From assembly GCA_973895155.1 (NCBI GenBank), contig OZ316894.1:19444805-19508804 (forward strand): DNA of 64,000 nucleotides, written 5' to 3'. Origin of the DNA: Marsupella aquatica. Lineage: Eukaryota > Plantae > Marchantiophyta. The notes under the pieces were generated by a model. That model had not been told where the DNA came from. It was given only the letters and a program-made list of their open reading frames with translations, and did not search any database. Numbering within the stretch: the stretch's first letter is position 1; each line of letters opens with the position of its first letter. The position numbers were made by a program, and so were the translations under genes. This document shows positions 13,020 through 40,386 of the stretch, one piece after another.

Positions 13020-13259
13020 TCATGCAAAGGAGGCAAATGAAGTCCAACATTGCCAACAGCAGCACCAGTCCCGACTCACGTAGTGTCATGGCGTTCTGAT
13101 CCATCACGATCTCTAACTCTTCGGGATCTCACGTTCTTGTTGCATGACACTCACCTTGGCTTCCGCTCCAGTCATAGACCTACCTGATATATGTTCGTTC
13201 ACATCTTGCGTGTCTCTGATCAGATTGTCTCATCTGAGTAAGATGTGGTCGAGAGGGGG

Positions 13260-13547: not shown

Positions 13548-14244
13548 TATCACTCCGCTCCTTTCGTTTAGTCTCCATATCTCTGGTCTATCTCGGCCTT
13601 TTCGGCCGTCTGTTTTATGTTTTTCGATGTTCTAAAATTAATTGCCCAACCCATCCCGCCAGTGGCACAGCGTTCTGCCTGGGCTGAGTTTCGCTTTCGC
13701 TCTCGCTCTCGCCCCACCCCACCCCGCCCGGCCCGGCCCGGCCCCCGTCCAAAACGAACGAACCGTCCAATGTCTAGCATGATTGAAGAGTAGCCTTTCA
13801 GTTGAATAGATATCTCAAATCTAGCTTGATCTTGGAATGTTTAGATATGGCAAATTTAATTGAATAGCAACCCATGCAGAGATGGGAATTTGTAGTGAAG
13901 CTATTGACGCATCAGTATTCTCAACAGTTTGTTAAGCTCGATCCTGACGGCCGAGATCAGGACCGCTCTCAATTATGATCAGAATCCAGACAACCCGAAT
14001 GCATGCACATGCTAATTAAGGGTTTCTGAATACCCTGGCAAACGAAGTCCGGCCATGCAATTGTCATCACTTGCCTATGGATCCTAATGACAAAATTAAC
14101 CACCAGGCAATCGCAGCATTAGGAGGCCACAACGCTCACCTTCCATCGAATGACTAGACTTTTTGTACAGGCGAAAGCCTTTGGAACTAAGACGAAGTAT
14201 ATGATCAGGTTGAGGATCCCCATGCCATCGTGATGGTTATCTTC

Positions 14245-17200
14245 CTAATAATCCTCCTTCAGACAGTAATGCCCTTCCTTTACAACACTCATCTCCACCC
14301 ACAGGTTCTTAAGCTCATGGTCATCATCCTCAGTGGTAGACTGAATAACGTCTAAGTTCCTTACACCAGACAGCTCCACCCACAACATCTGAAGCTCCGT
14401 CCACACCTCATTCATTGTAGGCCTAGATTTAGCCCGCATGTTCACACATTTCATCGCCAATCTTCCAACATTCAAGATGGACTCCCTCCCGTGGCCAGCT
14501 GGGTCATTATAGGTCTCCATAAGCGTTGGATCAATAATTTCTTGCAGATCTCCTGCTGTTATTTTCGGACTAGCTAAGTTCACAAGGCTGCTATCATCGC
14601 CACTCCTGCTCAATTCTAGCGCAAGCTTTGCTGATATGAGCTCCAGCAGCACCACACCAAAGCTAAATACATCACTTTTATCAGTCAGTCTATAGGAGGT
14701 ATAGTACTCAGGATCTATATAACCCATGGTACCTTGAACTGCAATTGTTGAGACATGTGTGGCTTGCAAAGGAGCCAATTTCGAGATTCCGAAATCTGCC
14801 ACTTTAGCGTTAAGGTCCTCATCTAATAAGATGTTTGCTGATTTGACATCTCTATGATATATTGGGAATGCAGTTGCGGTATGAAGATACGTCAACGCAT
14901 TGGCAGTTTGAACGGCAATGTTAAGGCTTGTTGCCAGCTCAAGCGATCAGCTCCCAATTTGCCACGAAGACGATCTTGGAGTGTGCCATTTGAAACAAAC
15001 TCAAAGACGAGCACAGCAGCCTTGTTTTCCATACAGCAACCAAGCAACTTCACAAGATTGCGGTGGTTCACTTGGGACAAGATCCTCACCTCGTTCAAGA
15101 ATTGCTCCTTATCCTTCTCTGAACCCTCTCGCTTGCTTCTCTTGATGGCTACGATAGTTCCATCGCTGAGTTTGCCGGCGTATACTGTCCCGAAGCCTCC
15201 TTCTCCTATTTGTGCACCCTCTGCGAAGTTGTCGGTGGCTTTCTTGAGCTCCCGAAGTGGCATGAGTGTTGCCGAATCCCTCTCCAACAGAGTGCTGATC
15301 AGATCCGCGTCTTGTTGGTGCTTCTTCTGGTACACTCTCCACCGCCAGGTTGCCGCCAAACAACTTCCCATAGCTACAGTTAGAGCGCCTCCGATTAAGA
15401 GAAACAACTCCCACCATGGTACACGTGGTCCTCGTGAGAAAACTTGAGGACTATGACGGGGACACGGATTTAGAGGAAGACCACAAAGTTCAACATTTCC
15501 AGCAAAGATGTCTGGATTATAGAAGCTACTGTTTGGTGGGATTGTTGGAAGCGATCCTGATAAATTGTTATGTGAGAGATCGAGCTGTCTTAGATTGGGA
15601 AGCATCAACATATCTGGGGGAAGAGGCCCACTTATATCATTCCCAGAAAGCATCAAAACCTGGAGAGATGGCAAACACGAGCTGTTGAAAGTTGACCCCA
15701 AAATCTCCCCGTCCAAGTGACTGTTGCTGAAATCCAAAACTTGGAGCACAGATAGGTTAAGAAAGCATGCATGAAGAACAGGCGTTCCCGAAAAGTTGTT
15801 GCCTCCAACCCGGAACTCTGTGAGCCGCTTGCTATAACTATTCAGTGTCTCCAGCGTCGCCGATATGGGGTCAGGAATGGCTTCCGACGTACTCCATCCA
15901 AGATTGTTGTTGCGAAGGTCTATGTATCGTAGACTATTGAATGGAGTACTCTTTGCAACTCTCGTGAGGTCTCCCGTAAACAGATTATTTGCAAGTCGAC
16001 ATTCGATTGTGAACATAAAACCAGAACTCCCCACCAGGACATCGACTATGTCTCCAGAAAGGCGGTTATTTTGAACCCGCAAAACGGAGATATAGGAACC
16101 GTTGCTAAATATGTTTGACGGAATGGGTCCACTAAGATCATTGTAACTAAGATCAAGAACACCAAAACACGTATAGGTGGCACCATCGATAGAGATACTA
16201 CCATTAAGGAGATTGTGTGATAAATTAACTGTAGGACACACATATGTATTATTGTCTGCAGCCCAACGCTGTAAGAGATCGGACGGGATTTTTCCCACAA
16301 AACGGTTTTGAGATAAATCTAAGGTAACGTACGGTAACTCGGAAAATCCCAAAGGGATAGTCCCTGTCAATCGATTGGAGGAGAGGTCTAGGAACTGCAA
16401 GCTCTTCAAATCCATCATACCAGACGGAATCACGCCCGTTAGCTGATTGAAGGAGACGGACAAGCTCGATAGACTGCTATTTGCGCCAACGAACCAAGGC
16501 TCGTGGAAGCCATTAAAGTTGTTATTGTCGAGCTTCAACTGGACAAGGTTTGCCGCGTTTGGAAGAGCAGGGATGGTGCCGCTGAGAGAATTATTAGAAA
16601 GATCGACAAAGAAAATGTTACTCAGTCCATCCAGCCCTTTTGGAAATGGGCCAGAAAGTTGATTGTGAGCTAGATAAAGAACCTGCAAATTCACCAGGGC
16701 ACCCACAGTCGGGATCTCACCGGAGAAGTTATTTTGCTGAAGAGAAATATACTGTAGGTTCCGGCTGGCAGAAAAACAGGGTGGTATAGGGCCAGAAATG
16801 CTGTTGAATGAGAGATCCAGCCAGGTGAGTTTCGTCAAATTGCAAATCTGGAACTCGGGAAAATACACCAAGCGAGACCCCAAGTGGTTGGATGAGATAT
16901 CCAGCCGAGTGAGCCCTGTCAAGCGGTAGACACCACTTACAGCATACAATTGGTTTGATGAGAGATCCAACTCACGAAGATCTTGAAGGTTAGATAACGC
17001 TTTCAGTTCCATGGAGTCAGTGAGCGCCTGTTGGGTATTTACCCAAGCCGAAAGATCAAGCCCTGATACAGTAGAATTGTTGATGCATCTTACACCAATC
17101 CAATCACACGGCTTCTCGTCAGTTTCTTTCCAGTTGTCCCAATATACGGGTCCTGGTCCCCAAACACGCTTGTTGTCTGCCCTGAATTGAAGAAGGGCCG

Positions 17201-17321
17201 TCGCATCGGTGCTTCGATTCAGAGAATCCACTCCACCTAGAAGCCGGATCCAGACTAGCAATACTGAGATAAGCTGGAAGTATGCTGAGAATGCAGGGAA
17301 TGATGAATAACTGGACGCCAT
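14245..17321 (-). pseudogene. Intronless LRR receptor-like kinase with a WAK/WAKL-type kinase domain (copy 1), 1-bp frameshift in the kinase
   Basis: Signal peptide, LRRNT cap (PCDWIGVRC), ~18-20 plant LRRs, LCGxPL cap, TM, then kinase GEGGFGTVY, VAIK, HRDVKSANILLD, DFG, GYIDPEY. One G is missing at ~14927 relative to copy 2 (AAGGCTTG vs AAGGCGTTG), which splits the ORF; this could also be a sequencing error. Confidence 0.9.
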
Positions 17322-18919
17322 TTTTGCACTGTGTAGAACTTGTCCTGACAAATATACTCTCAAGTTTAGACACAGCCTATGTACTCAATTTGTACAGATA
17401 GCCTAGATCTCAACCACTAGTAGAGATACTGTCGGAAGTGCGCAAGTTTTGCTGAAATTCCGCAAGAACGACTGGACATGGGAAGTGCGAACTCTGTTTC
17501 TTCAATTGTGTTGTCCAGGGTGACTTCAAGTCCCCTCTCGACAGCGCTGGTTTATCAATCAGGCCCGCTAGTATCGTAGGCATCAGGAATATCTAGATCT
17601 GGTAGGACGACCAATTCAAACCACGTAATCGTAAATGGCAGCGTCATTATCAGAGGAGATAGAAAACTGAGTCGCTGAAAGAGCTGCGTCTCAGTCGTAA
17701 GACAGTGGAGAATTATGGAAAAGCTGGATGGTACGTTGTCTAGAGAAGAGGGTGATGCAGTCTATTCCCGGTGCTCTCGATTACGAGATTGCTAATATGG
17801 TGTGTTAACACCGATGATCAAAATGAAAGGATCAGAAGCTATTACTCTATATCGGAACTAATCAAATAGAACAAAAGGATATCGAAAAACCCGCGCATTA
17901 AGATTCTGAACATTGTCGTTCTATCCGGGATCCGCCATGCCAGAATGACATATGCTACTTCCTCCTCAGACTTCCCAAGAATCTCCCCCTTGAATAATTC
18001 TATTAAACCCGTCACATTCATTGTTTAGAATTATTTAGAATTAAAGAATCAATCAGAAGTTGAAAAATGTATCTCTCGTTGTTGTCTTCTCCACGTAGTG
18101 TGTCGGGTGATGTTCCTTTGTCAATTTCTATTTGACTGCAATATTGTGACCGATCGGAAAGATCAGGGTCTACGTTAATTGGAGATTCTTCTTATAGTGT
18201 CACATGGTTGTATCCATCCTGGTCATCCCAACAAACGTGTGTGTCCATGAGGGCTTTAAGTTCAATCTATCACGGTTGTCTGAAGTAGATGACAAAATAA
18301 TCTGAAAAGCGGGAGGAGCAGTGTGGTGAAGAACAGTACTGTTCCAGAAGTCCTGTACTGTTCCAGAAGTCCTAGTACTGAAGTCCATGATAGTACTGTT
18401 CCACAAATGTGGGACAGAAAGGTTCCAAAACTGACGCACTTTACAAGCCACCAAGTCTCTCTCATTCTGGGCGCCATGGAGAATAGTTTGCTTGCCCCTC
18501 CCTGCCGTGCATCAACCCCAACCCACACCCGTAAGTAAGTCTTTCCACAGTCAGTCTAATTTGCAATTTATTCCAGCCCACTGTGGCTTTTTGGCGATTA
18601 CTGTTCGGTGAAGTAGTTTTGCTTCCCCGCCAAGCTCTTCCCTGCCCTGCTCCCTGCCCTGCCTGTACAGCATGGCAACGATAAGTAGCAGACAAGGATG
18701 AGATCGGACTAGTGATTCATTTTGAGCTTCAAGGAACAGAGCATCCACTGCCACTTAACGGTGCATCTCCATATCTGCTACAGCTCCCTAGTTCAATCCA
18801 TTCCCGAGCTGCATGGTTCGTATACTTGCTGTTTCCCCTAGATTTGTAGTGAGGGGAAGAGGAATGGGGAGGTTTCATTTAGTCAGGTGACTGGGCGGGC
18901 GGTCTATGAGAACAGACTT

Positions 18920-21900: not shown

Positions 21901-22530
21901 TTTTCTTCTATCAACATCTTTTTCAGGACATCTTGGCGTCATGATATTTTTTTTTCTTAAGAACATCATGGATCACAAGACATTTTTTTCTCAAGAATAT
22001 CTTCGGCAACACAACATATTGTTCCTTAATGACATCTTGGGAGACATGAGCCACATAATTTTTCTTGAGGACAGATTTTTTTCTTATCAATCTTGGGAGA
22101 CATGAGCCACCTATTTTTTCTTGAGGACAGAATTTTTCTTATCGATATCGTGGCTGACACGACATATTATTTTTCACTACACCTTTTGTGCAACGCACCC
22201 GTATGGAACTAGTTCTATATTTCCCGGTAGTTTCTGGGTACCAAAATATTTTCTTTTTGAGTTTGGAATCTTCAATCTCTTTCGCTGTCACCCGAAGTTA
22301 TTTGAGTGTTCTTTAGCAGCACATGTGGAGGTCGTAGGGGAGGAAGAGATGCAGATGCTGACGGTGACACACAAGACCCACCCACTGCTGCAGCATCCGT
22401 AGCTGACTCCCAAACAATTTCGCAAAAACATGATGTCGCAACAGCCGATCAGCCAATGGCAGACGACGAATCAGCAGAGCACGACCTTCATGATGCCATG
22501 GAGGAAAATGAAGATAACGATGGCTCCTGA
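18920..22530 (+). pseudogene. TAF7: TAF7 (TFIID subunit, TAFII55 family) disrupted copy
   Basis: MEEHFILRVPASVAERLNRLL at 18920 is the TAF7 N-terminus. An exon remnant at ~19404-19480 has EDGRTGNIVIG fused to DNKLIKTADVGQ|GT with the intervening conserved block missing. A probable acidic last exon ends at 22530. Confidence 0.7.
20108..22212 (+). mobile_element. Probable non-autonomous Helitron inside the TAF7 pseudogene
   Basis: The 3' end has the hairpin GTGCAACGCAC, then CCGTATGGAA, then CTAG|T at 22209-22213, the canonical Helitron terminus. The 5' A|TC at 20108 is a candidate only. The interior is AT-rich and non-coding. Confidence 0.5.
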
Positions 22531-22828: not shown

Positions 22829-25119
22829 CTACCTTATAACACTCATCTCCACCCACAGGTTCGGAAGGTCATGGTCATCTTCCTCATCGTCTTCAATGAT
22901 AGATTTAATAACATCCAATTTCATTGTGCAAGTCAGCTCCACCCACAAGATCTGAAGCTCTGTCCACACCTCATTCATTGTAGGCCTAGCTTTAGATCGC
23001 AGGTTCACACATTTCATCGCCAATCTTCCGACATTCAAGATGGACTCCCTCCCATGGTCATTGTATGTCTCTATAAGCGTTGGATCAATAATTTCTTGCA
23101 GATCTCCTGCTGTTATCTTCGGACTAGCTAAGTTCACAAGACTGCTGTCATCGCCACTCCTGCTCAAGTCTAGCGCAAGCTTTGCTGAGATGAGCTCCAG
23201 CAGAACCACACCAAAGCTAAATACATCACTTTTATCAGTCAGTCTATAGGAGGTATAGTACTCAGGATCTATATAGCCCATGGTACCTTGAACTGCAATT
23301 GTTGAGACATGAGTGGCTTGCAAAGGAGCCAATTTCGAGATTCCAAAATCTGCCACTTTAGCGTTAAGGTCCTCATCTAATAAGATGTTTGCTGACTTGA
23401 CATCTCTATGATATATTGGGAATGCAGTTGCGGTATGAAGATACGTCAACGCATTGGCAGTTTGAACGGCAATGTTAAGGCGTTGTTGCCAGGTCAAACG
23501 ATTAGCCCCAAATTTGCCATGAAGATGATCTTGGAGAGTGCCATTTGAAACAAACTCGAACACAAGAACAGCAGCCTTGTTTTCCATACAGCAACCAAGC
23601 AGCTTCACAAGGTTGCGGTGGTTCACTTGGGACAAGATCCTCACCTCATTCAAGAATTGTTCCTTATCCTTGTCAGAACCCTCTCGCTTGCTTCGCTTGA
23701 TAGCTACGATGGTTCCATCGTGGAGTTTGCCTGCGTATACTGTCCCAAAGCCTCCTTCTCCTATTTGTGCACTCTCGGCAAAGTTGTCCGTGGCTTTCTT
23801 AAGCTCCCGAAGCGGCATTAGTGTTGCCGAATCCCGCTCCAACAGAGTCTTGATCAGATCCGCATCTTGTTGGTGCCTTTTCTGGTACACTCTCCACCGC
23901 CAGGTTGCCGCCAGACAACTTCCCATAGCTACCGTGAGAGCTCCTCCGATTATGAGAAACAACTCCCACCATGGTACACGTGATCGAGCAAAAATCTGGG
24001 GAAGGCCCTGAATGGGGCATGCCTCTAGGGGAAGACCACAAAGTCCAGCATTTCCAGCAAAGATGTCCGGATTATAGAAGCTACTGTTTGGTGGGATTGT
24101 TGGAAGAGATCCTGATAATTTGTTATCTGACAAATCGAGCCCCCGTAGATTTGGAAGCATCAATATATCTGGGGGAACAGGCCCACTTATATCATTGCCA
24201 GAAAGCTTCAAGACCTGGAGTGATGGCAAACATGAGCTGTTGAAAGTTGAACCCAAAATCTCCCCTGTCAAGTGACTGTTGCTGAGATCCAGAACTTGGA
24301 GCAGAGTTAGAGTAACAAAGCATGCACTAGGAACAGGAGTTCCGGAAAAATTGTTGCCTCCAACTCGGACGTCCGTGATAGACTTCCAGCTCTGGAGCGT
24401 AGCCGATATGGGGTCAGGAATGGCTTCCGACGTAGTCCATCTTAGATTGTTGTTCTGAAGGTTTATGTATTGAAGACCGTAGTATCCAGGATCACTATTC
24501 GCAAGCTTTGTGAGGTCCCCTGTGAAGAGATTATTTTCAAGTCGACAGTCCGTTGTGAACCCAAAACCGAGACCTCCAAAAAGGACGTCGACTATGTCTC
24601 CTGAAAGGCGATTATTTTGAAGCCACAGATAGTTGATGGAAGAACCTGAGCTACTAAAGATATTTGATGTGATAGGTCCACTCAATTTATTGTAACTGAG
24701 ATCAAGAACAATAAAACAAAGAAAGGTTGCACCATCAAGAGGGATGCTACCAGTAAGGAGATTGTGCGATAGATTAAGTGTAGGACAAGTCTCAGAATTA
24801 AGTCCAAGCGAATTCACTAGGAGATCGGACGGGATTTCTCCCACGAAACGGTTCTGCGATAAATCTAAGGCAACATATTGTAGCTTCGAAAATCCCTTGG
24901 GAATAGTCCCTGCCAATTGATTGGAGGAGAGGTTTAGGAGCTGCAAGTTCAGCAAATGCATCATACCAGACGGAATCCCTCCCGTTAGCTGATTGTAAGC
25001 GGCGGACAAGCTCAATAGACTGCTATTTGTGCCGACGAACCAAGGCTCCTCGAAGCCTGTAAAGTTGTTGTTGTCGAGCTTCAACTGGACAAGGTTTGTT
25101 CCCTTTGGAAGAGCAGGGA
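22829..25119 (-). pseudogene. LRR-RLK with WAK-type kinase (copy 2), 5'-truncated
   Basis: Paralog of 14245-17321 with an intact kinase frame. Homology to copy 1 stops at 25119 (...GGAAGAGCAGGGA), so the signal peptide and first LRRs are absent. The ORF-track start at 25228 is a TTG in unrelated DNA. Confidence 0.88.
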
Positions 25120-25344
25120 ACAAACTCTTGTCCAGTTTGTTCTCTTTTAGTTGATATTTTGTTTTTTGAAATTCCCAAACAAGACCACTCACACTAGGGA
25201 CATTCTCAAAATGCCAAACTTCTTTCAATATGATTCATGAATTCATGAATTCATCATTCACAACATTTATGGTTTGCCATGAACTCAAATAATAATAAAT
25301 TGCAAATACTAATGTTTGACAAAATTGCCAAAGATTGGTAAATC

Positions 25345-28300
25345 TCAATTCCTACCATTCATTTCTAGAGTAACTTCCATTGAAGTTTCTTCTTGATAAT
25401 TTCTTACTATGCTACCTTCACCTTCTTGGTCTTTCTCCTCCTTGAGAAATTCTGAGAGTCGGATTTTAATACGATCTATTGTTTTCTTGTAAAGAGTATC
25501 AGACCTTGTTAGCATAAAATTATATGCAAACACCGTAGTTGAAGACAGATCAAGGTCTTGATGAAACCAAACTGGTTTCAAGGTTCCCTTGCCTCGTCCA
25601 CTTTTTTTCTTCTCGTAACTCAATACTTCTGGCAGATATTTTCCTTTCCAAGGGTCAGATCCTTTCTTTGCTGCATGCCACAAAACTGAGATAATCTTTG
25701 GGATGTGAGCCTCATCGCGAAGAACAATTTTTTCCACTTTAGCCACCCAAAATGATTGAGACTTCTCTCCGGCCACAGAAATAAATGTGTTGATTTCCAA
25801 ATCCGAAAAATCACCTTCCATATTCTCCTTCTCTGCATCTATCTTTTCTTGATTTCGATATGGACCAACATAAATATCTCTAGTTGGACCGTACACTCTC
25901 TCTTCAATTTCTTCCTCATTCAATATAGTTGTAAGAGGTTCAGCTCCAAGATCAGCTTCAACATTTGTATCCCCTTTCGCCTTGGGCCATTCAAATGGAG
26001 AGATCAAAGGTCTTTCTTCAAGCAAGAGAGATTGATTGAATTCTCTTTGTTCCTCAAAAAAAGAAGTCCACCAAACAACTTCTTCTTCAGAGAATAATAT
26101 CTGAGCTGCAAATATACCTTTCTGAATTTCATTCAAACAATCATCCATTTCGGACAGGGTCATTTTTCCCGAAGATGATATGTGAGCTTGATTTCCAGCC
26201 CTTCCTTCATCTCGTTTCTTGTCTCCTTTCTTCACAAGTGGCATCCCATCCGAGCAACCAATCACCTTTAGTGGCAAGTCTTCTTTCAACAATTTAACAC
26301 CTCCTTCTGGTTTCCAAATAGTGTCGGTGGAAATTTTCTTCCCCCATTGTGTTGGAACTTGATCATCTTCACAAGCAAAAGAAATTTTGTACTGGTGATG
26401 GAATGTAACATTTCGTATCCTTTCTCTGATCATAGCAGGCTCTGAGAAAGCAAATTTTCGGAAATCGTATGTCTCATTTAAAAGGGTAATTTCAGGGTGA
26501 GGTTGGTAAGACTCTCGAATAATCTTACATAAACTATCATAGGTAAAGGCCTTAAATCTTCCAAGCCTTTTTGAAAACCTACTGAACATCTGATCTATTT
26601 GATCATGGGTATGTCCAACTAAGAGGAATCCAAGTTTGATTTTTCGAAATACCTTTTTTTGTACCAGCATGTGAAGATATGTGAAAAGTAAATTGTTTTT
26701 GTTTTCCCTACTTGTATTGTCAAGCTGAAGGTAAAAAACAGGTGGAAGGCCCCCATACTTCTCTTGATATTCTAGGAATACTCTTTGTAAAATAGTAATG
26801 GTAAGATTTCCATCATTATGGAGAATTGGATAATTAAGGAAAACCCTAGAAAATAGTGCTCCGTGGAAAAGAAGACAACCAACCACATGCATTTGGATTA
26901 AGCAGGACTCATCGACGGATTTTGGAGGACGTGGCCAATGGGGTAATCTAGTCATTTTTTGATCCATTCCATCAATCACAACTCCCAAATATTTTTCTGG
27001 GTTTGTGAAACACTTCTTTCGATGCTTTGCCAGTTTTTCCCGCTCTTTTGATTGTTGCTCTCGATGTTTTTGTAACATTATTTCTCCTCTCCCTGCAATC
27101 AATCCAAAAATGGTCGAGCAAAGTTGTTAACTTGAAATTCATTCCTAATGTTTAGCCATTCCTCAATTGATTTCCTGACAATTATCTAATACAAAGACAT
27201 GTTCAAAACAACAAAATAAAAATGACTTACGTTTTTCAGTTTCGGAGACTCCTTTGTCTTGAATGGTTTTGAATTCTTCACAGTCCGCACAAGCACTAAA
27301 ACGATTCACAGGAGGAATCTTCACGTGCCCAAAGTCTTGTGACCATACTTTCAAAAATTGCCGATATGATATTTTGGATGACTCGTCAGTGATCACATAG
27401 CTTGAATCATATATTTTCCGAACTTCTAGCTTGGAATAATTATCAGGCAAATGTGAAACATCTTTATTTGGTAGAGTCTCCACACGAGTCTCAAAAAACG
27501 ACTTCAACCAAGAACTCAACACTAATGTTCTCACAGATTGAGGTCGACCAACCGGTCTAGGATAAGCAAGATCTTGATTGCCTAGCTTCTTGATCCTATT
27601 CAATCTTTCATTTCCTACACAAAAGACCATCTTGAAAGATTTTCGACACACGTCTCTTTGTCCAATCATGTATGTGACATTGGACCTCCCCTCTTCATTT
27701 CCGTCTTGCTTGACGAGCCACTGCAAAGATAAAGATCGATCCTGAGATTTTTGCCTCAAAAACTTTGAGCGTGCTTCACGAATTTGTTTTGGTGAAAGAC
27801 TCAGGAGACAATGACGTTGACAACAATACTTACGATTTGTCTTCTTGATATCCTCGTCTGTCATCTTTGTTTCACACAAGCGGAGATTTGACGGTCGTTT
27901 ATTAGCCATCATAGGTCTCTCTGCATGCTCTCCTTCACTCTCAGACGAAGATTCTTCGATTGAAGATGATATCTCCACAAGTTTATCGAGTTGGTATGCA
28001 GACAAGCCCCTCCTCACCCGCCCGCGAGGACTCAATGGCTCCTCCTTCACTCTCAAAAGGAGTGAGTTTGATCGATTTCCATCTGAATCCCCAAAGAAAC
28101 CACCTTGGGTTGACTCTCTTGCCCTCTTGTTTGGAATCTCTTCAAAGATCTTCTTCTTGCCCTTGTTGTATCCTAACTTAGATCCACTTCCAACCTCAGC
28201 CAAACGATCAAAGTTCCCTGGAGATCTTCTCAAATTGATCCTCTCCTTGTTCGAATTCATCTCATTTCCAAGAGGCCTCCTTGTTTCCGCTCTCACTCCT

Positions 28301-28806
28301 TCTTGAAATCTGAAGGATGTAGGACGAGAATACTCAATCTCTTTCATTGGTGCATGTTGCACACCACGACTTTCCCGTAGTGCACAAAAATCCACTTTCG
28401 GGGTTTGACTGGGCCTGTTTGGCACATCTCCAGATCTGGCCTTCATGAATTCATGAGTCCTCTTTTTCACATCTCCACTATGTTGAGGGCCTACAGAATG
28501 CACCCCCAAATTAACCCCCTTTTGAGAAGGATTCGATAATACTTGACGGCCAGGGGGACTTGTACTCTCAGATGAGTCTGAAGACTCAGAAGGATCACTC
28601 ACACAAGGACCAAATAATTTTTGCTTCATATTTGGTACACTAAGAGCCTTGACTTTCAGCTTACTCATTGGAGTTGGGGGAGGCATCTCCAAAATAGTGG
28701 TTTTGCTAGGAGCATCTGGAGAAGTAACAGGACAGGGACAGTTCGGGAAGGAAACATCATCCGAAATACCATCAGAATAATCGTCCGACTCATAACAGGC
28801 TGCCAT
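25345..28806 (-). CDS. Sola-like DDD/E transposase, spliced, ~1107 aa
   Basis: Exons 28806-27231 and 27092-25345; the GTAAGT...TTGCAG intron joins them in frame (EKR|RGEIM). Cys motifs CCQRHC, VCRKSF, RFSACADC. Catalytic-type motifs VIDGMDQ, YLQLDNTSRENKN and FLLVGHTHDQIDQMFS. No stop in the spliced frame. The superfamily call is from motif recall (DUF7869-like), not an HMM search. Confidence 0.8.
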
Positions 28807-29883
28807 TTCAAAATATGCACAAAACTCACAAGGGAACACCTAAAACACCAAATGAACTCAAACTGAAAAATTGAAATGAGATAGAGTCATGAATAAGAAG
28901 CCCCTTTTATAGGTTTTTGAAAATAACTCAAAATATTAATTAGCAATAAAATTAAGAAATGTGCCACACTGTTTATTAGGAAGTAGTGACAAGGAAAGAA
29001 ATCTTTCATGAGAAAATAATTTATTGTTTCTCCAAATCTCACAGGTTAACTTATGTTTTCAGGTTTCTAATACTCATAGAGTTCTTGGAGACTTGGATAA
29101 CTCATTGCTGAAGTCTTCTCCTGAAATATTGTCAACAAAGGTGTCATAATTTTATTTTTTACTAAAAGCATATGTTTTCATGCCAACATCTTAAGATAGT
29201 GTATCAGTAATGCATTGGTCATTTTTACCCCACTTTTTTGTTCATGTTTTTGCATACTATTCAATTGCAAGCAAAAATGTCTTAGATGACCCCTGTTTTA
29301 GGCATTTTCTTGGTTTTTACTTGTATTTCTTTTCCCCGTTGTATTGGTTATTTTGGGCACAAATTTTGACTTTTTACTAGATTCTTTCAAAATGATACTT
29401 GATTCCCTTTCATGAATTCATGAAGGGTTACGACCTTCCTGGATTCGTGAAGTGGAGGTGGCAAAAGGTTCATGAATTCATGAACCCAAAAATTGGAAAT
29501 TGCTAAGTTTGGGACAAATTGGACTGTCAGCTGCTGGGAGTATGGGCGTGCATCTGCAAAGCGTGACGGGAAAGGAAGCTCGGCAAAGAGCTATGGTGGC
29601 CTGATGTTTGGTGCTGTGGAAAGTGCTTCCCTCAGTGATTGGTACGTTCTGAATAGGAATTGAATTGAGTCTTTGATTGAATCCCTAAACTGGAACCGAA
29701 AATCAGGGCCGGACCAACATCTGGTGCAACTATCTAATCTCGGAGTGGAATGGAAGCTCGAATGGAAGCTTGCAGTGGACTGGAATAGCGTGACTGTTCA
29801 GGCGCACATCAATCGTGGAAGGGAGGGGAAGAGTTGGCTTGCGAGTTGGGGAGAGTTTTGAGTGAGCGCAGCAGGCGAGGCAG

Positions 29884-30335
29884 CCGACAATTGTTTTCGG
29901 GGAAGAGAAATTGTCAAGCTGGGGAGGGAGGCGAAATTGTCGAAGGCCAAGGAGTGAGGCAAAATTGTCGAAGGCCAGGGGAGTGAGGGATTGTCGAAGG
30001 CCTGGGAGAAGCAATTGTTTTCGGGGAAGAGAAATTTTCGAAGGCTAGGGAGGGAGGAAAAATTGTCGAAGGCTGGGGAGGGAGGCAAAATTGTCGAAGG
30101 CCAAGGAGTGAGCAGAAATTGTCGAAGGCCGGGGGAGTGAGCGGAAATTGTCGAAGGCGCCCGGGGGAGAAATTGTCGAAGCGTCAAGGGAGAAGCGATT
30201 ATCAAAGGCCGGGGGAGAGAAAGAGTAAAATGCTAGGGCGAGAGAAATAGTCGAAGGCCAGGGGAGAGAAATAGTCGAAGGCGCAGCGAGGAGAAATAGT
30301 AGAAGGCACAGGGAGGAGAAATTGGTGAAGGTCGG
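29884..30335. repeat. Array of ~15 AAATTGTCGAAGGC-like motifs, period ~23-29 bp, purine-rich spacers
   Basis: Seen directly. It lies between the divergent transposase and methyltransferase start codons. Confidence 0.9.
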
Positions 30336-30755
30336 GGGAGGGAACAAGAGTCACCGGCCGAGGGAGCGACCAACGGAGGTGGAAGGGAAGAGCCGTCGGT
30401 AGAAGGGAGGCGTGCAGAGAAAGGAGAATTAGAAGGGGGAGAGACGATCGGGAGGCCTTTGGAGTCGGGACCAAGAGAGGGACAAACTACATTAAGTTGG
30501 GAGGGATCGATCGGCTCGGGCATCGGCTAGGGAGGTGGAGGAGATAAGCTAAGCCAAATCAGGGAGAAAAATACCTAAGACACACTTCTGAGCGGGAATA
30601 ACCATCTAGGCTCGGGCGCTGCAAATTCAACTTCTGACTCCACTGTTAAGGTAAGAACCTTGCTTCATGAAATCATGAACATAAATTCTACAACTGAACT
30701 TGCCAAACGAACAGGGCTAACTTTGAAATGTTGGACTTGATTTCAGGAAGTCAAG

Positions 30756-33700
30756 ATGGTTGAACCAAAATCACAGGAGAAGGTGTTAGACTCAATTTTT
30801 GTTGAGCATCCTTTGACAGATTTTGGAAACTCTTCTTGGACAATATCATTGGGGACAGAATCGTGGAAGAAACCTTTTTTGATGTTGTGCATCTACGAGA
30901 CCTTGCCTTCTGGAGGTCTTGGTTGGGTGAATTATGGCCGGATTGATGTCTTTTGATGAGGGGGCGATGTACTCAATATGATTATCACAACAAAGGAGAC
31001 GTCTACACTGATTGCAGTTGACATTGAGAGATTTTCTGGAAGAGCTGCGCATTGTTACTTGGCTGATGACATTGAGATGATTATTGAGAAGGTGAAGAAT
31101 CTGTCGGCAGAAGAAAGCTATGATGAGATTGCACAGCTCATTGCTGGTTATGTGTTTGAACATCACGCCAGCACACTGAAGAGTGCAATTCGAAAGTCTA
31201 GGGAGATTCTTCGAAAAGCAACAGAGAAGAGTGCCAGTGCCCGTCCACCAAAGTCTGGTCCTTCTTCTGCTCCTTCTGGATCTCGTCTGAGCTCTGTCCC
31301 GGCAAGAAAGATGGTTGTTACATCTCCAATATCTGGTGGTGGTTCACAAAATGTAAGATCGCAAGAGGGGACAACCGTGACTGGAGGATCAGCACAGGGC
31401 ACTGCCGGTACTCGGACTTCATCAAAGAAACGTGGACCAGAGGGTTCTCAAGGTGCAGGACCAACTCCACCAAAATCCAAGAAGCAGACATTGGAAAAAG
31501 TCCCCACTCATTTGGAGCAGAAGGCTCAATCTATGTCCATGGATGCTCGGGTGATCTACCAGGAAGGGATTTTGATGAGGTGTGGAGTTCAAGAGGAGAC
31601 AGTCACTATTGACATTGGACAACTTCACCCACCTGTCCGTGAGAAATCTTTGGAGTTGCCAGTGTACCAAGTAAGGCATATCCAGCCCTACTTTCTTACA
31701 CAATTGACCACAAGGATGAAAGCAACTGGAGCTAGTCCACTAGCAGCACCTTTTGTTCTCTTGGTTGATCCCAAGGAGTGCCCAACTCGAGGTGATTTTG
31801 ATTTCTCAAAAAAGAATGAGTACCACTATTACGTGATTGGGGGAAATCATTTTGCTTGTGCAAAGGCAGACCTGGCATTACAATTTCCCAACAACAAGTC
31901 CTACAGGAGAGTGCAATCTTGGATCTTTGCAGGCTTATCTATCCAGGAAGCAAGGAACTTAGCTTGGAGTCATAATATAGACTCTGAATTTCGTCAACAG
32001 ATGAGCACCATCCAAAGAGTGAATTACATTCACATGCGATTTGTGGAGAATGGATCTTCATCAAATGTTGATTTCAAGAAGGAGTGTGCCACTGAAATCA
32101 ATCTAAAGGACTGGGGTGTACGTAAAGATTCTGAGGTTCTGAATGCCAATGATAATTTATTTCAGTTGGCATTTCGTAAGGATCTTGTTTGGTCTTTCAT
32201 ACGACAGATCTTTGACAGATGGGAGAATTGTGAAATAAAAGGACAGAAAGGAGATAAGACCAAGAAAAAGATATCCAAGTCTAGAGATGCTAGAATGTTG
32301 TGTGAGGATATGAAGTTGACTGAGTGGAGACACATGCAGGCATTGAAAGATCCAGACATGATCTGTCCAGTGTTACAAAGGGTTTTGGCAAAGGAACTAT
32401 CTCTTCAAGAGATGGGACAGGAATTTCAACGACACAAATTCCAAATGCAAGTGCAAAAAGCATTTCTTACCTGCCTTCATGAAGAGAGTTGGAAGAATTG
32501 CAAAACCAAGTACCCAGAACACTGCACTGATAATGTGCTGAAGAACTTTGTTCCTGTCTCCCAGACTTGGGTAAGTTTATTTGAGATAATTGATTGTGCA
32601 TGTTTATTTGAGATAATTTATTGTGCATTTGTTTTACAATTTTATTCTTGAGTATGTAGGAATCTAATACCCAAATTGCTTCTCTCAGAAAGACAGCAGC
32701 TCCCGGAAAAAGAAAGGAGAGAGTGAAGAAAGCAAAGAGTTGAAGTCCTTCCCAGATAAGTTCAATGCGCATATTGCACAAGCACAGAACTGGTGGGCAA
32801 TGAAGACATCTTGCCGAGAGACCCAGGGAAGTGAACTCCACCCTAATGCTTTTGAGCATCCACAGTTTGGGGATGTATACTATGATATCTTTATACATGA
32901 TGCTCAACGGTTGCACGAGGTAGTCCCATCACGAGCTTACACATTGGCTTTGGCAGATATTCCTTATGGGTTTGGAATGACTGCTTGTCTTCACGAAGAC
33001 AATGTTGGATGGGGTGTGGAAGAGGTGACCAAGATGGTTCAGTGTTTCAAGGTTGTCACCAAGGCCAATCTTTGGCGAATTATCATTCATCATAGTATTG
33101 ACCAGTACGATGCTATCAAGACTGTCTTGAAAGCTGAGTGTAATGGTGGTTTCCAGAATTGCATTTGGTAAGAAATATTTCAAAACATGAATATTTTTTT
33201 TTGGTATTCATGATTTCATGATGTTGGATTTTGAAATAAATTCATAATGAAAGTTTTGGTTTTTGTAGGGTGAAAGACAATGTTAAGAATGCAGGAGGTG
33301 CAAGGCTTAACAACAACTTTGAGTGTTTTACCATCGGCTTTCACAATCAGGATGGGAAACGATCTTTGGAGCATTTCAATTTTGAGACTAATGAGTCTCG
33401 AAATAATGTGGTTGTGTGTCCAGCTGTGACCAATAAGTTGAAACACAATGGGGACAATAAGATGGTGAACTTTTACCAGAAGCCAAGAGTATTATTGGAT
33501 TGGGAAGTTACCCATTTTAGCCAGGTTGGAGACTGGGTGCTAGATATTTGTTCAGGGTCAGGCACAGGATTGTCTTCCTCTTTGGCACAAGGAAGACATT
33601 GTGTTGCTGTAGAGATTGATGAGCGCCAGAGCAGTGTCTTGAAAGGGAGGATTCTAAACCTGGTGGACAACATTGAGGAAGATGACGGCAAGGGCATGGT

Positions 33701-33827
33701 GGATTCAGATGTTGATGTTGAAGAGACCATTCTACCAATACCAGAGATAGGAGTTGAAGAGGAGGAAATCATTGGACTTGACTCTTCAGGAGTTGTAGCA
33801 AGTGTTGAGGAAACAAGAGATGCTTAG
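30756..33827 (+). CDS. ParB/Srx-like domain fused to a beta-class N6-adenine/N4-cytosine DNA methyltransferase, spliced, ~950 codons (two in-frame TGA at 30954-30959, possibly pseudogenised)
   Basis: Exons 30756-32570, 32689-33167 and 33269-33827 with GT-AG introns in matching phase (QTW|KDSS; NCIW|VKDN). ParB-like motifs: IDIGQLHPP..YQVR, PFVLLV, YYVIGGNHFACA, EARNLAWSHN. MTase motifs: IV LALADIPYG, CIWVK...E, X QKPRVLL, I VLDICSGSGTG, GRHCVAVEID. The order IV before X-I is the beta class. Confidence 0.8.
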
Positions 33828-35260
33828 ATGAGGATATTTTTGTAAGACTTTTTACTGTTGTTTTAGCTACAAAGAACTAGACTTTAATGGCAAGTTTTGA
33901 GATGTCAATGGCCTTTGAGCCTAGACTATGATATTTATACTTGTTTTGAGAGGTCTATTCTATTAAAATCAGGTTTTGAATATATTTTGTCTCAAACATT
34001 GCTGTAAACTCTAGTTTAAAAATTCAAAGGATGAATGTCAATAAAATATGCTGATTTTAGTGCCTATTTTAGGACTCTATTTCTCAAAATCATGATTATT
34101 TTGAAAAAGGAATTAAGGCCTTAGACCCATCCTTTAAGGCTTTGTGTTTATATGACTGCTGTGTTTAATGACCATACTTATCTCTGAGTATATAGTTAAG
34201 ACTTAGGTTTGTCTGTGTTTGCAATCCATGACTAATTCGTGATAAGTATCGATCAATGGCTTAACTAGATAAAGTGAATGACTTGGTATATGTGTATTTA
34301 AAGAGGCCTGCACATTTTGTTACCATACTCGACGTTGTACAGACTTCACTTATGTATGCTATGACATTGGCCTTGAATGGGTGTTTTTCCTATGAATTTA
34401 TCTCTCTTGTCTTTTGTAGGGTTAGAATTTGTGATCTTGGGGATGTGGTTGTTGCAGGTCCTACTAGTGTTAACAATGTAACGGTTGTTACCCATGCATC
34501 AAGTCACGGTGTTAGGCAAAGCAGCCTGGCTCAAGAAGGAGGCATAATTGCTACCCTCTGGATTTGGTTTCCCCCCTTCCTTTGGAGGTCAATGGGGCCT
34601 TACATCCTGTCTTTGACCAACACGGACATGCATGTGCAGTCCTTTAGATCTGAAGAGGACGGTCTAATCCCACATTATTTTCCATACCTTCTGTAGATGG
34701 TGGATGTCTGACACAGTACAAAGGGCTCAAGCATTCAAAGGGCTCAAGCATTTACTAGTCTTTGAGAGCTTGGAGCTGTTAGTTTTAGGGCTTCAAGAAA
34801 TCTTTGTGACCCTCTTAGACACATTACAGAGGGCTCAAGTCAAGGCTGTTAGTTTTAGGGCTTCTAGATCTTCTGGTCCCCTCTTAATATGTGGATTTTT
34901 CCAGAGCTTCACCAAGCTTTTCGGCTTGCGGCTTAATTCTACTTTAGAGCCAATTCCCATGTGACTGCCCTGAAGGATGTGGCCCTTAGTACTAGCTAAA
35001 CCCTAGGCAAAAAGCAAATCTAGATTTAAAACTGGATCTGCTTAAGTGCAAAGTCTTTGCTTTTGTTCTATTCTGAATGCAAAGGTCAGGACCTTAAGCT
35101 GCTGGAAAGTCTGGCCTTTGCCCTTGAAAGTCCACAATCTTTGTCCTCAGGCCTGGCACAGGAGGGGGTTCAGGCATGTAAATGGTGTCTATTATATGCA
35201 GCCATGAGTCAAGTTGAGAGCCACATTCTTCAGGACTCAGTACATGCAAGTTGGGCCTTA

Positions 35261-36820: not shown

Positions 36821-37071
36821 CCAAAGCTACTACTTACCAGTACAAAGCATTTACCAAAGCTGCCACTTACCGGTACCGTAGCGGAGACTTGGGATGCCTC
36901 TCCAAATCTGCTACAGCTCTCGTGCTTCAATCCAATGCAAGCCGATTCAATTCAACCCATTCCCGAGCTGTAGTGTTCATATATTTTCTGTTTCCCATAA
37001 TTTTGTTGTGACAGAAAGTAGAGGTTTAATTCAGTCAGGTGACTGGGCAGGCAATCCCCGAGACTAGAAGG

Positions 37072-37125
37072 ATGGAGGAGCAGTTTATTTTGAGGGTGCC
37101 GCCTTCCGTGGCAGAGCACTTGAAT
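37072..37125 (+). pseudogene. TAF7: TAF7 5' fragment (second copy)
   Basis: MEEQFILRVPPSVAEHLN. The upstream region ~36890-37070 is homologous to ~18763-18920. Confidence 0.75.
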
Positions 37126-37126
37126 A

Positions 37127-37434
37127 AGCACCATGAAAAGATGCATTGTGTTTCTCGTGGTAGCCATTGATACCAGGAATCTGAAAACAGCACCATGAAA
37201 AGACGCATTGTGTTTCTCGTGGTAGCCATTGATACCAGGAATCTGAAAACAGCACCATGAAAAGACGCATTGTGTTTCTCGTGGTAGCCATTGATACCAG
37301 GAATCTGAAAACAGCACCATGAAAAGACGCATTGTGTTTCTCGTGGTAGCCATTGATACCAGGAATCTGAAAACAGCACCATGAAAAGACCCATTGTGTT
37401 TCTCGTGGTAGCCATTGATACCAGGAATCTGAAA
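37127..37434. repeat. 62-bp minisatellite x5
   Basis: Unit AGCACCATGAAAAGACGCATTGTGTTTCTCGTGGTAGCCATTGATACCAGGAATCTGAAAAC, near-identical copies. Confidence 0.95.
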
Positions 37435-38507
37435 TGACGCTTTGGTTCTTTTAGGGATTTGTTTTACTTCCGAGACTGTAGATCGAGAATTAATTGCAGC
37501 TACAGCAGTTCAAGTCACACTGACGAATAGGGACTGCCATAACATCGAATTCGATGCAATAACGAATCAACTGTCCTCTCCGTGTACTACTCCGTATCAA
37601 TGGTCATTTCTGTCGATGGACGGATTTCAAGCCATCCTGGTAGTCGACCACAGCTTGGGAGGCATGATCCTAACTTACTAGTAGAAGCATATATCTTCCG
37701 AAGAACATGTCTGTACACAAACAATACTCGACTGTTTCCAAGAGTGGAAACTACCGGAATGATCACTGGGAGAAAAATTTCATGGGATATCTTCCTCAGC
37801 TTCAATTGGGATCCCTAGTCACCTAAGGAAGTTATATGACTCAATTAACAAGCCGTGCTGGTAATGTCCAGCAAAGGCTTACAAACACGCACTTGCACCT
37901 GCTTTGCCATTTCACTTGAAGCATACGTGCCCTCGTTGTACTGTCCCAAAATTCTTGAAAGTTGTACCTTCCAGTTGATTGTTATATGAACTCCATGAAC
38001 ATCATACTTTTTCACTCTGAACGAACCTCAAGCGAGTTCTTTGACAATTCACCTGACAGTCGTCCTTTGATGCTGGCCCAATTCGCAAAGCAAACGAAGG
38101 CTTTGTCGAGGACAATCACCTTTCCTCACTAATCAGTGGGCACATGCAACCAACTGTTGCGATAAACATTGGCGTGGGTTTTCGTTTGTTGTAGCCCACA
38201 TCTCACCGTTTCCGCTCATCAATGGAATCGTGTCAATGAGTTGCGGGACTACCAAATGCTCCGGATCATTTGGTCCTTGGCTGAAGTCTTCACAACGGAA
38301 TAATTCATAATTAGTTGGGCTGTGTGAACAAATCGAATGGCCAGATCTGTCCTCAACCTTGTCCTACAATAGCTTTCAACCACGCCAGTCTTACTGAATT
38401 TGTTACCAATTAGCGGCCTCTATTTTCAACAGCTGTTCAGGACCTTCGCGAAATTCGACACTTCTCCGTCATTTCCTTTTCTCACTTCGTTTCACGGTTT
38501 CTTTTTG

Positions 38508-40252
38508 CTACCCACCTGAGACGTCCCTTTCCAATTCTTCACCTGTTCGTAAGTGCCCACACATATTGCACTCCATGGTCGCATTTTCAGCAGCTGCAAG
38601 GGGGGATGCAAGAGGAGCCATGGTTCCTCCGCAACCGTCGATCGGGCAGAGGTACTTCAAGAAAAATAAGGCGTGCTCTAATTCGTCGTCGCCAATATCT
38701 TCTGGAACTTCCGCTATTCCCTTTCCTTTCCGTTCTTCTCCTTTCCCCTTTTGCCCTTCTTCTTCTTCTTCTTCGTCGTCATCGTCATCATCTCCATTCC
38801 CAGATGTAGAGAAGCCATTTTCATGAATTTCTTCAGGCCCTGCGGTCTCTGAAGGAATCACGCCATACTCATCTTCGTCCTCACCTTCGCTCTCACTTTC
38901 GGTCCAACTTTCCTCCAACAGACATCTTTTACATCCACAAGCGAATCCGTACTCTTCGGATAATCTTTCCACCCTATCTTTGAGCGACCAGTTGATAGGA
39001 AAGTAGCTTATTGTCACCTCAGTATTCTCGGGAATGGAATGCAGTGCCCTTATATAAATATCCGTATTGAAATTACTAGGCCCATCTAAAAAATCGAATC
39101 TGCAACCAACAAAGAGGCAGACTTAAGATTCATAAAAAGCATAGCATCAGAAACCAGTATGGGAATGTACACGGTGATGAATCTTGATTCTCCAGACTCT
39201 TAAAAGCCGATCAACATGTGACATAATAGGCGTTGAGCTGTGACTCTCTCCAATGTATATCGATCACTAACCAATGAGAAAGCTCCAAGTGGGGGCTGAA
39301 GCTGAAGAGGTAAAGAGACTATTACTTTACCGGAATTATTAAATCTACTCTCTCTATCTTCCTCTAAACCCTAAACCCTGTCCCTACATTTGGGAACCAG
39401 CAGCCTTTATAGGTCCTTCCATTCATTCTTCTCTGATTCTTAATTCTGTCCAAGCCAGAACTTGGTCAGCGAAAGCCACAGATCAATCTGTTACAATTTC
39501 CAGTTTATTAGATGTGAGCGGAGAGGAACTCGAGTTTAGGGTTCAGAGCAGAAGACCAATAAGTAAACCATTTACCTGCACGAATTGGGAAGGCAGTCAT
39601 GGTTGATGAACGAAGCAGTCTGATAAACTCCAAATCCTCGAACAGAGCGTTCCCCATCGACCTGAAAAGGAGCCATGTATCCAAAAGTATTGCGCGCATC
39701 TTTGGCCAGCAGGTCAGCCGTCACTCCCACACACACAACCTGCTTCTCCCCCTCGTCTAAGCTGCTCCAGGGCCAACCACGAACGGCGTCCTCCACAAAA
39801 GCGTGCAATTCACTCACACCACCATCCACAACTCCAACGCCTTCGAGCAGCATCAGGCGCTCGAACTCCGACCGTGAGCCGAGGGCCAAAAGGTACGCAG
39901 CGAGGAGAAACCTCGCCTGATCAGCCCGATCGCCATCAACAAATCCTGCTTTCTTGAATTTAGCCAGAGCAGAGCACAGGTGAGGAGAATGGCATTGGCT
40001 GCAGACCGAGGAACAGAAGGTGACGGCTCCGCAGCCAGTACACGGATTGGCATCAGGAGGACACCTTCGGAGACAATTGCCGCAGTAGGTGAGGGCACTG
40101 GAGTCACTGACGTAGAGAAGTGCTGGAGACTCTCGGAGCAAAACTTCTCCACCATAGATCGCTCTCGTGGTCACGAGTCCACGCCCTCGTCCTGGAAGCT
40201 CCACGCACTTGATGAGTAGCTCCTCTTCGCTCTTCGTCATCTCCATCGCCAT
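38508..40252 (-). CDS. ASHR2: SET/MYND-type (SMYD) lysine methyltransferase, ASHR2/SDG39-like
   Basis: GRGRGLV, MYND-like CGNC..CTGC..FCSSVC, FINHDCLPNSCR|FD, ISYF, post-SET FACGCKRC and C-terminal CPIDGCGGTM..MECNMCG. Exons 40252-39576 and 39099-38508 with one GT-AG intron. Confidence 0.9.
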
Positions 40253-40386
40253 CTCCACGGGACTGCAATTCTCCGCTCTCACTCCGGAGAGGAGAGGAGA
40301 GGAGAGGAGAGAGATTTCTGCTCTAGCAGAACGAAGCGCTTACGAAACATGTACATTAGTCACTCCAGTCACTAATCAATAATTTG

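What the first reader, a model, noticed from the sequence alone, without database searches (positions are those of the whole stretch)
30756..33827. Spliced ParB/Srx-like + beta-class N6A/N4C methyltransferase fusion hidden across four ORF-track fragments
Seen: the fragments at 30756, 30978, 32740 and 33270 join into one frame through two GT-AG introns (32571-32688, 33168-33268). The product has a ParB-like core (YYVIGGNH..A, A..HN), a helical region, then motif IV DIPY followed by X (QKP) and I (DICSGSGT). Established: this motif order defines beta-class amino-MTases (PF01555-type, e.g. M.RsrI). ParB-MTase fusions are common in phages and bacterial mobile elements. Inference: a prokaryote- or virus-derived enzyme has acquired spliceosomal introns. 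DIPY is nearer DPPY (usually 6mA) than SPPY (usually 4mC), but specificity cannot be read from this. The ParB GxHR arginine is replaced (GNHF), so the domain may be non-catalytic.
Basis: partly seen in the sequence, partly recalled or inferred. Interest (0 to 1): 0.85.

Follow-up and report, generated by a model that had tools for sequence, protein, structure and literature searches.

The report
Plant transposon carrying ParB-methyltransferase fusion
A broken copy of a plant jumping gene carries, beside its predicted transposase, an intron-containing fusion of two bacterial-type domains that likely binds a short palindrome scattered through the element and likely methylates the element's own DNA, a self-marking idea proposed before for algal transposons.

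Summary
The observation largely holds. Both GT-AG introns sit at the same codon positions in three homologous loci with saturated synonymous sites and in a liverwort gene model. The ParB/Srx fold and the beta-class amino-methyltransferase domain are confirmed. (1) This copy has TGA TGA at codons 67-68 and a private Ser-to-Phe after GGNH, so it is probably dead. (2) The gene is cargo of a ~9 kb multicopy DNA transposon, head-to-head with a DUF7869 transposase-like gene; the layout recurs in L001. (3) The element holds six copies of the palindrome TCATG-N4-CATGA (0.21 expected), one inside intron 2 in 4 of 4 loci. Homologs occur in Chara, liverworts, a fern and Ginkgo, and degenerate ones in hemichordates. 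Best reading: an accessory protein that binds the palindrome and methylates its own element, probably 6mA (closest solved relative CcrM). The same architecture is in print for Ectocarpus Sola1-1, so this is a new member of a barely studied kind; the candidate binding site is the new, testable part. Activity, base, expression and superfamily were not shown.

The parts
25142..34142 (.). Multicopy DNA transposon-like element, about 9.0 kb; left end lost in this copy, right end approximate
   Evidence: Contig depth rises across both genes and falls at the flanks in 4 of 4 runs; high-depth contigs end at 34142 and low-depth ones start at 34113-34119; other copies run on beyond 25142 with different letters
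27231..28806 (-). Transposase-like gene, exon 1 (ATG at 28806; Cys-rich motifs)
   Evidence: Stop-free; N-terminus MAACYE shared with the divergent ORF of L001
27093..27230 (-). Predicted intron of the transposase-like gene (GT-AG, phase 1)
   Evidence: Sequence only; joining gives a stop-free 1107-aa frame
25345..27092 (-). Transposase-like gene, exon 2: DUF7869 domain with acidic motifs DGMDQ, LDNTSRENKN, GHTHDQID
   Evidence: PF25273 E 2.5e-50; DDE/DDD-transposase reading is recalled plus context, not tested
30651..30746 (+). Predicted 5' UTR intron of the ParB-MTase gene (96 nt), holding one palindrome
   Evidence: Sequence only: AAG|GTAAG ... TTTCAG|GAAG; inferred
30756..32570 (+). ParB-MTase exon 1: N-terminal domain of unknown fold (about residues 1-165), low-complexity linker, ParB/Srx-fold domain, helical region
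30954..30959 (+). Two in-frame stop codons (TGA TGA, codons 67-68)
   Evidence: homologs align on both sides
31575..31985 (+). ParB/Srx-fold core (residues 274-410) with R307, GGNH 362-365, private F366, HN 406-407
   Evidence: VIA-align model range 32-168 vs PadC; conservation
32571..32688 (+). Intron 1, phase 0
   Evidence: 13 of the 13 homolog ORFs that reach this point read W-V into the intron
32689..33167 (+). Exon 2: linker and MTase motif IV DIPY (32956-32967)
33168..33268 (+). Intron 2, phase 2, with a conserved palindrome
33269..33827 (+). Exon 3: CcrM-like loop, QKP (33477), motif I DICSGSGT (33543-33566), acidic tail, stop
25235..25248 (.). Palindrome TCATG-N4-CATGA, downstream of the transposase-like gene
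28443..28456 (.). Palindrome, inside transposase exon 1 (L001 has one, 346-359, in the matching ORF)
29410..29483 (.). Two palindromes (29410, 29470) between the two genes
30665..30678 (.). Palindrome in the predicted 5' UTR intron
33208..33221 (.). Palindrome in intron 2 (present in 4 of 4 loci)
29888..30322 (+). Purine-rich 25-28 bp tandem repeats between the two genes
25115..25141 (.). Inverted-duplication filler at the broken left junction with a 5'-truncated LRR receptor kinase copy

Best explanation
This is a disrupted copy of an accessory gene on a multicopy plant repeat that is likely a DNA transposon, and the intact protein likely binds the element's own TCATG-N4-CATGA palindromes through its ParB-like half and likely methylates the element's DNA, probably at adenine. 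Shown: gene structure, both folds, fusion in annotated homologs, purifying selection on all three regions, co-amplification with a DUF7869 gene, and palindrome enrichment and conservation. Inferred: that DUF7869 is the transposase; that the ParB-like and helical region is what reads the palindrome, as a dimer, as ParB reads parS; that the product is 6mA; and that the mark keeps the element expressed or shields it from host 5mC silencing, a role like that of the VANC proteins of Arabidopsis VANDAL elements. This copy would need another copy to supply the protein.
For: Head-to-head layout with a DUF7869 gene in the window and with a homologous ORF start in L001. Depth over both genes several-fold to more than tenfold above the flanks in 4 of 4 runs (depth is not a copy number). 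Palindrome: 6 in the window, all within the 9 kb element, 0.21 expected, 0 of 100 shuffles reach 6; 4 in L001, 3 in L002, 1 in L003, 0 in L004-L005. One lies in intron 2 in 4 of 4 loci although synonymous sites between the window and the loci are saturated (pS 0.72-0.90) and the window's intron 2 is only 58-60% alike to the others. In L002 all three sites have changed symmetrically to a CTAG centre, which keeps the inverted symmetry but not the direct repeat. dN 0.25-0.32 against dS of 2.5 or more for the window vs the loci. Motif IV begins with Asp in all 13 rows that cover it; it reads D-x-P-Y in 7 of them. A family profile ranks CcrM (E 1.7e-10), MboIIA, DpnA and RsrI above rotifer N4CMT (E 6e-5). 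The top structural look-alike in the Atlas is a phage ParB_N plus N6_N4_Mtase cluster. Precedent: Ectocarpus Sola1-1_Ec32 and inverted-repeat arrays beside the ParB-like PAG3 gene in Bostrychia.
Against: No binding, activity or expression data. The pattern was first noticed in the window, so only L001-L003 test it independently, and L002-L003 do not reach a transposase gene. The transposase or a host factor could equally be the binder; a 2026 preprint reports that transposases act as sequence-specific regulators (abstract). The ParB arginine of the GERR box is missing family-wide, and no canonical HTH was assigned in the helical region (only Z 4.4 or lower). Motif IV has a hydrophobic residue in place of the first Pro, is altered in 6 of 13 rows (PH, PC, LY or truncated), and is degenerate in hemichordate homologs. 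The element is CpG-depleted (o/e 0.47; MTase coding part 0.26; intact neighbouring kinase gene 0.72), so any protection from 5mC is incomplete. TIRs and a target-site duplication could not be found because the left end is lost.
Confidence: 0.55

Rival explanations
1. The gene is transposon cargo and an active MTase, but the palindrome is read by the transposase or a host factor, and the fusion protein targets something else (for example the transposition intermediate or the insertion site).
For: Transposases bind repeated sites in their elements (established knowledge; preprint abstract). The transposase ORF is intact in this copy and so are the palindromes, while the MTase gene is broken.
Against: The sites are internal, including inside MTase introns, not clustered at the surviving right end: none lies between 33221 and 34142. 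A 14-20 bp palindrome is the kind of site ParB proteins bind (established knowledge; stated).
Confidence: 0.2
2. Same targeting, but the product is 4mC, or the substrate is single-stranded DNA or RNA.
For: PF01555 covers both specificities. Land plants have a 4mC precedent in Marchantia. Eukaryotic amino-MTases have often shifted to RNA (Iyer 2016 passages). DpnA, a single-strand enzyme by those passages, ranks third.
Against: Motif IV starts with Asp, not the Ser of DN4MT1 and N4CMT. The CcrM match extends over a loop after the W-K motif. The ParB-like partner points to DNA.
Confidence: 0.13
3. The MTase domain is a catalytically dead binding module, as reported for DIRS1 MTase domains, and the protein acts only by occupying the element.
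For: Non-canonical motif IV; degenerate motifs in Ptychodera; DIRS1 precedent.
Against: Motifs IV, X and I are retained from Chara to Ginkgo, and the MTase region is as constrained as the ParB region.
Confidence: 0.09
4. It is a domesticated host gene or part of an endogenous virus rather than transposon cargo.
For: ParB-MTase fusions are common in phages; ParB-like folds also occur in giant viruses.
Against: Multicopy together with a DUF7869 gene, disrupted copies (window; L001 has a stop too), no other viral genes seen in the window's ORF list, and no relatives found in viral contigs, phages or plasmids at the sensitivity used.
Confidence: 0.03

Closest known systems
Ectocarpus Sola1-1_Ec32 accessory protein (PMC12477816; passages and one supplement row seen)
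   Same: ParB-like plus N4/N6 MTase in one chain, on the strand opposite the transposase; self-modification proposed. Its transposase's best hit is a Physcomitrium Sola1 element.
   Different: 21.5 kb element in a brown alga, 1104 aa; the passages seen name no binding site. Here about 9 kb, two genes, land plant, with a defined palindrome. Sequence homology to it was not tested, and none of the 30 hits looked up was named as an alga other than Chara.
Bostrychia Plavaka accessory genes PAG2 and PAG3 (bioRxiv 10.1101/2025.02.11.637652; passages seen)
   Same: ParB-like protein beside inverted repeats in its own transposon; a PF01555 MTase on the same element.
   Different: There ParB is fused to a 2OG oxygenase and the MTase to a SET domain, on an EnSpm-type element, and the repeats are tandem arrays. 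Here ParB and MTase are one chain and the palindromes are dispersed.
Caulobacter CcrM and phage ParB_N-N6_N4_Mtase fusions
   Same: Beta motif order IV-X-I; best PDB sequence match; top Atlas structural cluster has the same two domains.
   Different: D-hydrophobic-P-Y instead of DPPY; extra N-terminal domain and a long helical region; introns; PDB matches are distant (E 1e-10 by profile only).
Marchantia MpDN4MT1 and rotifer N4CMT
   Same: Prokaryote-type beta-class amino-MTases in eukaryotes.
   Different: They carry SPPY and make 4mC as host enzymes; the passages seen mention no ParB domain. This one has Asp at motif IV and rides a repeat.
Arabidopsis VANDAL VANC proteins (PMC5735166; abstract and outline seen)
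   Same: Element-encoded protein acting on short motifs in non-coding parts of its own element, with motifs that differ between families.
   Different: VANC removes 5mC and no sequence relationship was tested; here the inferred action is adding an amino-methyl mark.

Membership tests
Beta-class amino-MTase (PF01555) | Motif IV before motifs X and I | tested here: met
   DIPY 695, QKP 835, DICSGSGT 857
Beta-class amino-MTase (PF01555) | Pfam score above the curated cut-off | tested here: met
   31.5 bits on exon 3 and 32.7 on P0016 vs 26.7
Beta-class amino-MTase (PF01555) | Canonical (D/N/S)PP(Y/F) motif | tested here: not met
   First Pro replaced in all 13 rows covering the motif; Asp kept in 13, D-x-P-Y in 7
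Beta-class amino-MTase (PF01555) | SAM-dependent methyl transfer to N6-A or N4-C | not testable with these tools
   needs an assay
ParB/Srx superfamily | ParB/Srx core fold | tested here: met
   Foldseek E 8e-6 to Noc/ParB, 12 matches at E<=0.001; VIA Z 8.9 to PadC, and the 8 chains with Z>=5 are named as ParB-like, KorB, sulfiredoxin, serine kinase, SbnI or Atu1540
Canonical ParB CTPase | GERRxRA box | tested here: not met
   GGNH followed by S 15, T 5, G 3, C 2, F 1 of 27; equivalence to the box is from position at the strand-helix junction and recalled knowledge
Canonical ParB CTPase | HTH that binds a 16-bp palindrome | tested here: inconclusive
   Foldseek alignments extend past the core, but HTH matches are Z 4.4 or lower; a palindrome exists, binding untested
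DN4MT1 / N4CMT 4mC enzymes | SPPY motif IV | tested here: not met
Transposon ParB-MTase accessory proteins (Sola1-1_Ec32 type) | ParB-like and N4/N6 MTase in one chain | tested here: met
   6 of 33 proteins scanned hold the ParB core and PF01555 above cut-off in one predicted chain
Transposon ParB-MTase accessory proteins (Sola1-1_Ec32 type) | Gene on the strand opposite a transposase within a repeat | tested here: met
   transposase identity of DUF7869 is inferred
Transposon ParB-MTase accessory proteins (Sola1-1_Ec32 type) | Sequence homology to the algal proteins | not testable with these tools
   the algal sequences were not among any tool results
Sola1 DNA transposons | Terminal inverted repeats and 4-bp target-site duplication | tested here: inconclusive
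   left end lost; no terminal inverted repeat among the 25 longest listed
Sola1 DNA transposons | Transposase homology to Sola1 | not tested
   motif resemblance is recalled only; no paper in the library holds 'DUF7869'; no PDB match

The most novel reading that the evidence does not exclude
A eukaryotic transposon family has kept a working ParB-parS-style system: the fusion loads as a clamp at its own palindromes, slides along the 9 kb element and lays down 6mA, giving land-plant transposons a private epigenetic mark in hosts that lost the canonical 6mA pathway, with site and protein co-evolving between families.
Probability: 0.2. Interest if true: 0.9.

Novelty: new member of a known kind. 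Interest (0 to 1): 0.6.

Why it matters
This locus extends the architecture to streptophytes (Chara, liverworts, a fern, Ginkgo) and supplies a specific candidate site, with a natural variant (L002) that allows a specificity-swap test. If the enzyme makes 6mA, it would be a localized source of 6mA in plants whose lineage is reported to have lost the AMT1 pathway, and a possible tool for site-anchored methylation.

Tried and rejected
No whole genome is held, so copies could not be compared directly. No RNA holder was listed; this says nothing on expression. A search for longer homologs of the ParB region found none among 784 candidates, but the profile search later did. No relatives in viral contigs, phages or plasmids; only two weak motif-I matches in archaeal genomes (L004-L005, E 9e-5 and 3e-4), not taken as donors. 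The model of P0016 was unusable (pLDDT 41.9) and was not searched. The homodimer prediction gave no verdict. A ParB-region profile found no PDB relative by sequence; Pfam and PHROGs do not detect the ParB domain. The N-terminal domain had no usable Atlas hit. The hairpin at the right end (34115-34143) folds no better than shuffles (z -0.37; L003 z -1.70), so a Helitron-type end was not pursued. An alternative acceptor for intron 1 at 32659 was rejected: it shifts the frame, and homologs use the W|K junction. Whether other copies lack the TGA TGA was not resolved: a high-depth contig covers 30873-31175 with 15 differences and no gaps, but the places were not listed. Literature searches; none listed a paper describing this family in land plants or this palindrome, but the library lacks most subscription papers, including the 2011 review cited for green algal examples, and supplements of the bioRxiv preprints were not seen.

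Full report
Observation. The introns are 118 and 101 nt, 73-78% AT, with canonical ends. They are real features of the family: L001, L002 and L003 have introns after the same Trp codon (phase 0) and inside the same Trp codon (phase 2), while their synonymous sites are saturated against the window. All 13 homolog ORFs that reach the end of exon 1 read W-V into the intron (13 of 15 hits; two end earlier; two of the 13 appear to be the L001 and L002 proteins). The Calypogeia fissa model P0016 crosses both junctions at 65% identity. These are gene predictions; no RNA run was available.

Domains. Exon 3 scores above the PF01555 cut-off. An AlphaFold model of residues 243-605 (pLDDT 75) matches Noc and ParB by Foldseek (best E 8e-6), PadC by VIA-align (Z 8.9) and phage ParB-like proteins in BFVD (best E 2e-5). 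Pfam and PHROGs miss this domain. In 27 diverse members N407 is invariant, H365 is in 26, and the residue after GGNH is S in 15, T 5, G 3, C 2 and F only in the window. So the arginine is gone family-wide, the Phe is private, and the pocket is conserved rather than decayed. Motif IV starts with Asp in all 13 rows that cover it and reads D-x-P-Y in 7. A family profile ranks CcrM (E 1.7e-10), MboIIA, DpnA and RsrI above rotifer N4CMT (E 6e-5); DN4MT1 and N4CMT carry SPPY (passages). This favours 6mA without proving it. The N-terminal 165 residues are conserved in close homologs but have no assigned fold.

Family. A profile search found 435 representatives at E<=0.001. Of 30 looked up, the named ones were Chara braunii, Riccia sorocarpa, Adiantum nelumboides, Ginkgo biloba, Ptychodera flava and Saccoglossus kowalevskii; the rest were unnamed. 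Of the 33 longer proteins scanned, 8 exceed the PF01555 cut-off and 6 of these also hold the ParB core in the same predicted chain (Chara twice, Riccia, Ginkgo, Adiantum, one unnamed). The hemichordate proteins keep the ParB and helical parts but have degenerate MTase motifs. The closest named relatives are liverwort proteins; the host is a land plant by its neighbouring genes and was not identified further.

Context. Upstream on the other strand lies a DUF7869 gene (E 2.5e-50) that is stop-free over 1107 codons once one GT-AG intron is removed. L001 has a divergent ORF with the same start (MAACYE) upstream of its ParB-MTase gene. Contigs of four public runs show depth several-fold to more than tenfold above the flanks from about 25142 to 34142, covering both genes; junction contigs match the window without differences. 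Depth is not a copy number, but the step is clear. At 25142 other copies continue with different sequence, and the neighbouring LRR receptor kinase copy lacks its first ~260 codons and ends in an inverted-duplication filler: this copy lost its left end in a deletion, so terminal repeats and target duplication cannot be read. That DUF7869 is a DDE/DDD transposase, perhaps Sola-like, is my recall of its motifs plus this context; it was not tested.

Palindrome. TCATG-N4-CATGA occurs 6 times in the window, all inside the element, against 0.21 expected, and 4, 3 and 1 times in L001-L003. CATG alone is not enriched, and among CATG pairs only the 4-base spacing is (16 in the element plus loci, at most 1 at the 12 other spacings). 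One copy is in intron 2 in 4 of 4 loci and none in intron 1. The centre is AWWT in the window, L001 and L003 but CTAG in all three L002 sites, two of which sit in 32-bp perfect palindromes. A symmetric change at dispersed sites is what a dimeric binder would select. I noticed the motif in the window first; the three loci are the independent test.

Mechanism. The simplest model joins the parts: the ParB-like and helical region recognises the palindrome, and the MTase marks the element, probably with 6mA, to favour its expression or counter 5mC silencing. All three regions are under purifying selection (dN 0.25-0.32, dS 2.5 or more or saturated, window vs loci). The element is CpG-depleted, consistent with host methylation and with imperfect protection. 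Binding, activity, dimer state and sliding are inferred. The main rival is that the transposase reads the palindrome.

Prior art. The Ectocarpus paper describes a 1104-aa ParB-like plus N4/N6 MTase gene opposite the transposase of Sola1-1_Ec32 and proposes self-modification (passages; supplement row). The Bostrychia preprint reports inverted-repeat arrays beside a ParB-2OG gene and a separate PF01555-SET gene (passages). Iyer 2016 lists a ParB-HTH-fused Dam clade in chlorophytes and chytrids, of another structural group (passages). A 2026 preprint covers Dam-type enzymes in retrotransposons and does not mention ParB (first fifth and passages). VANC was seen as abstract and outline. Ten searches listed no description of this family in land plants or of this motif, within the limits of the library.

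Verdict. A real, spliced, now disrupted ParB-MTase cargo gene; new member of a recently named and untested kind; interest 0.6, mostly for the candidate site that makes the self-methylation idea directly testable.

Noticed in passing
window 22829-25119 (-) and 14895-17384 (-): Two tandem LRR receptor kinase genes, 85% identical in DNA; the right-hand copy lacks its first ~260 codons where the element begins.
   Followed up: partly
window 22485-22504: A near-match to the extended palindrome (CCTTCATG-ATGC-CATGGAGG) outside the element; no other similarity to the element was found nearby by blastn.
   Followed up: partly
L002 307-338 and 349-380: Two of the sites are extended into 32-bp perfect palindromes with different arms (region z -9.9 as folded DNA).
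   Followed up: partly
L001 1540-1560 and L002 380-400: A shared motif GGTTGTGTGTATACAC upstream of the ParB-MTase gene, next to a palindrome or a degenerate one; not seen by eye in the window.
   Followed up: no
L001 2102-2310: Apparent extra intron in the N-terminal domain that the window's copy lacks.
   Followed up: no
P0127, P0149, P0172 (hemichordates): Animal homologs with ParB and helical regions but degenerate MTase motifs; transposon context unknown.
   Followed up: partly
P0020 (Chara): One predicted chain holds two tandem ParB-MTase units; may be a merged gene model.
   Followed up: no
window 34262-34470: Short remnant resembling a hAT transposase C-terminus (recalled motif DLVYV) just right of the element.
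   Followed up: no
window 286-1700 (-): Pogo/Tigger-like transposase fragments, by eye.
   Followed up: no
window 7329-13548 and 56818-63442: Two Copia-like LTR retrotransposons with LTR pairs 99% and 97% identical.
   Followed up: no
window 37065-37436: Tandem array of a 62-bp unit, copies 97-99% identical.
   Followed up: no
window 38508-40339 (-): SET/MYND (SMYD-like) gene in two large exons.
   Followed up: no
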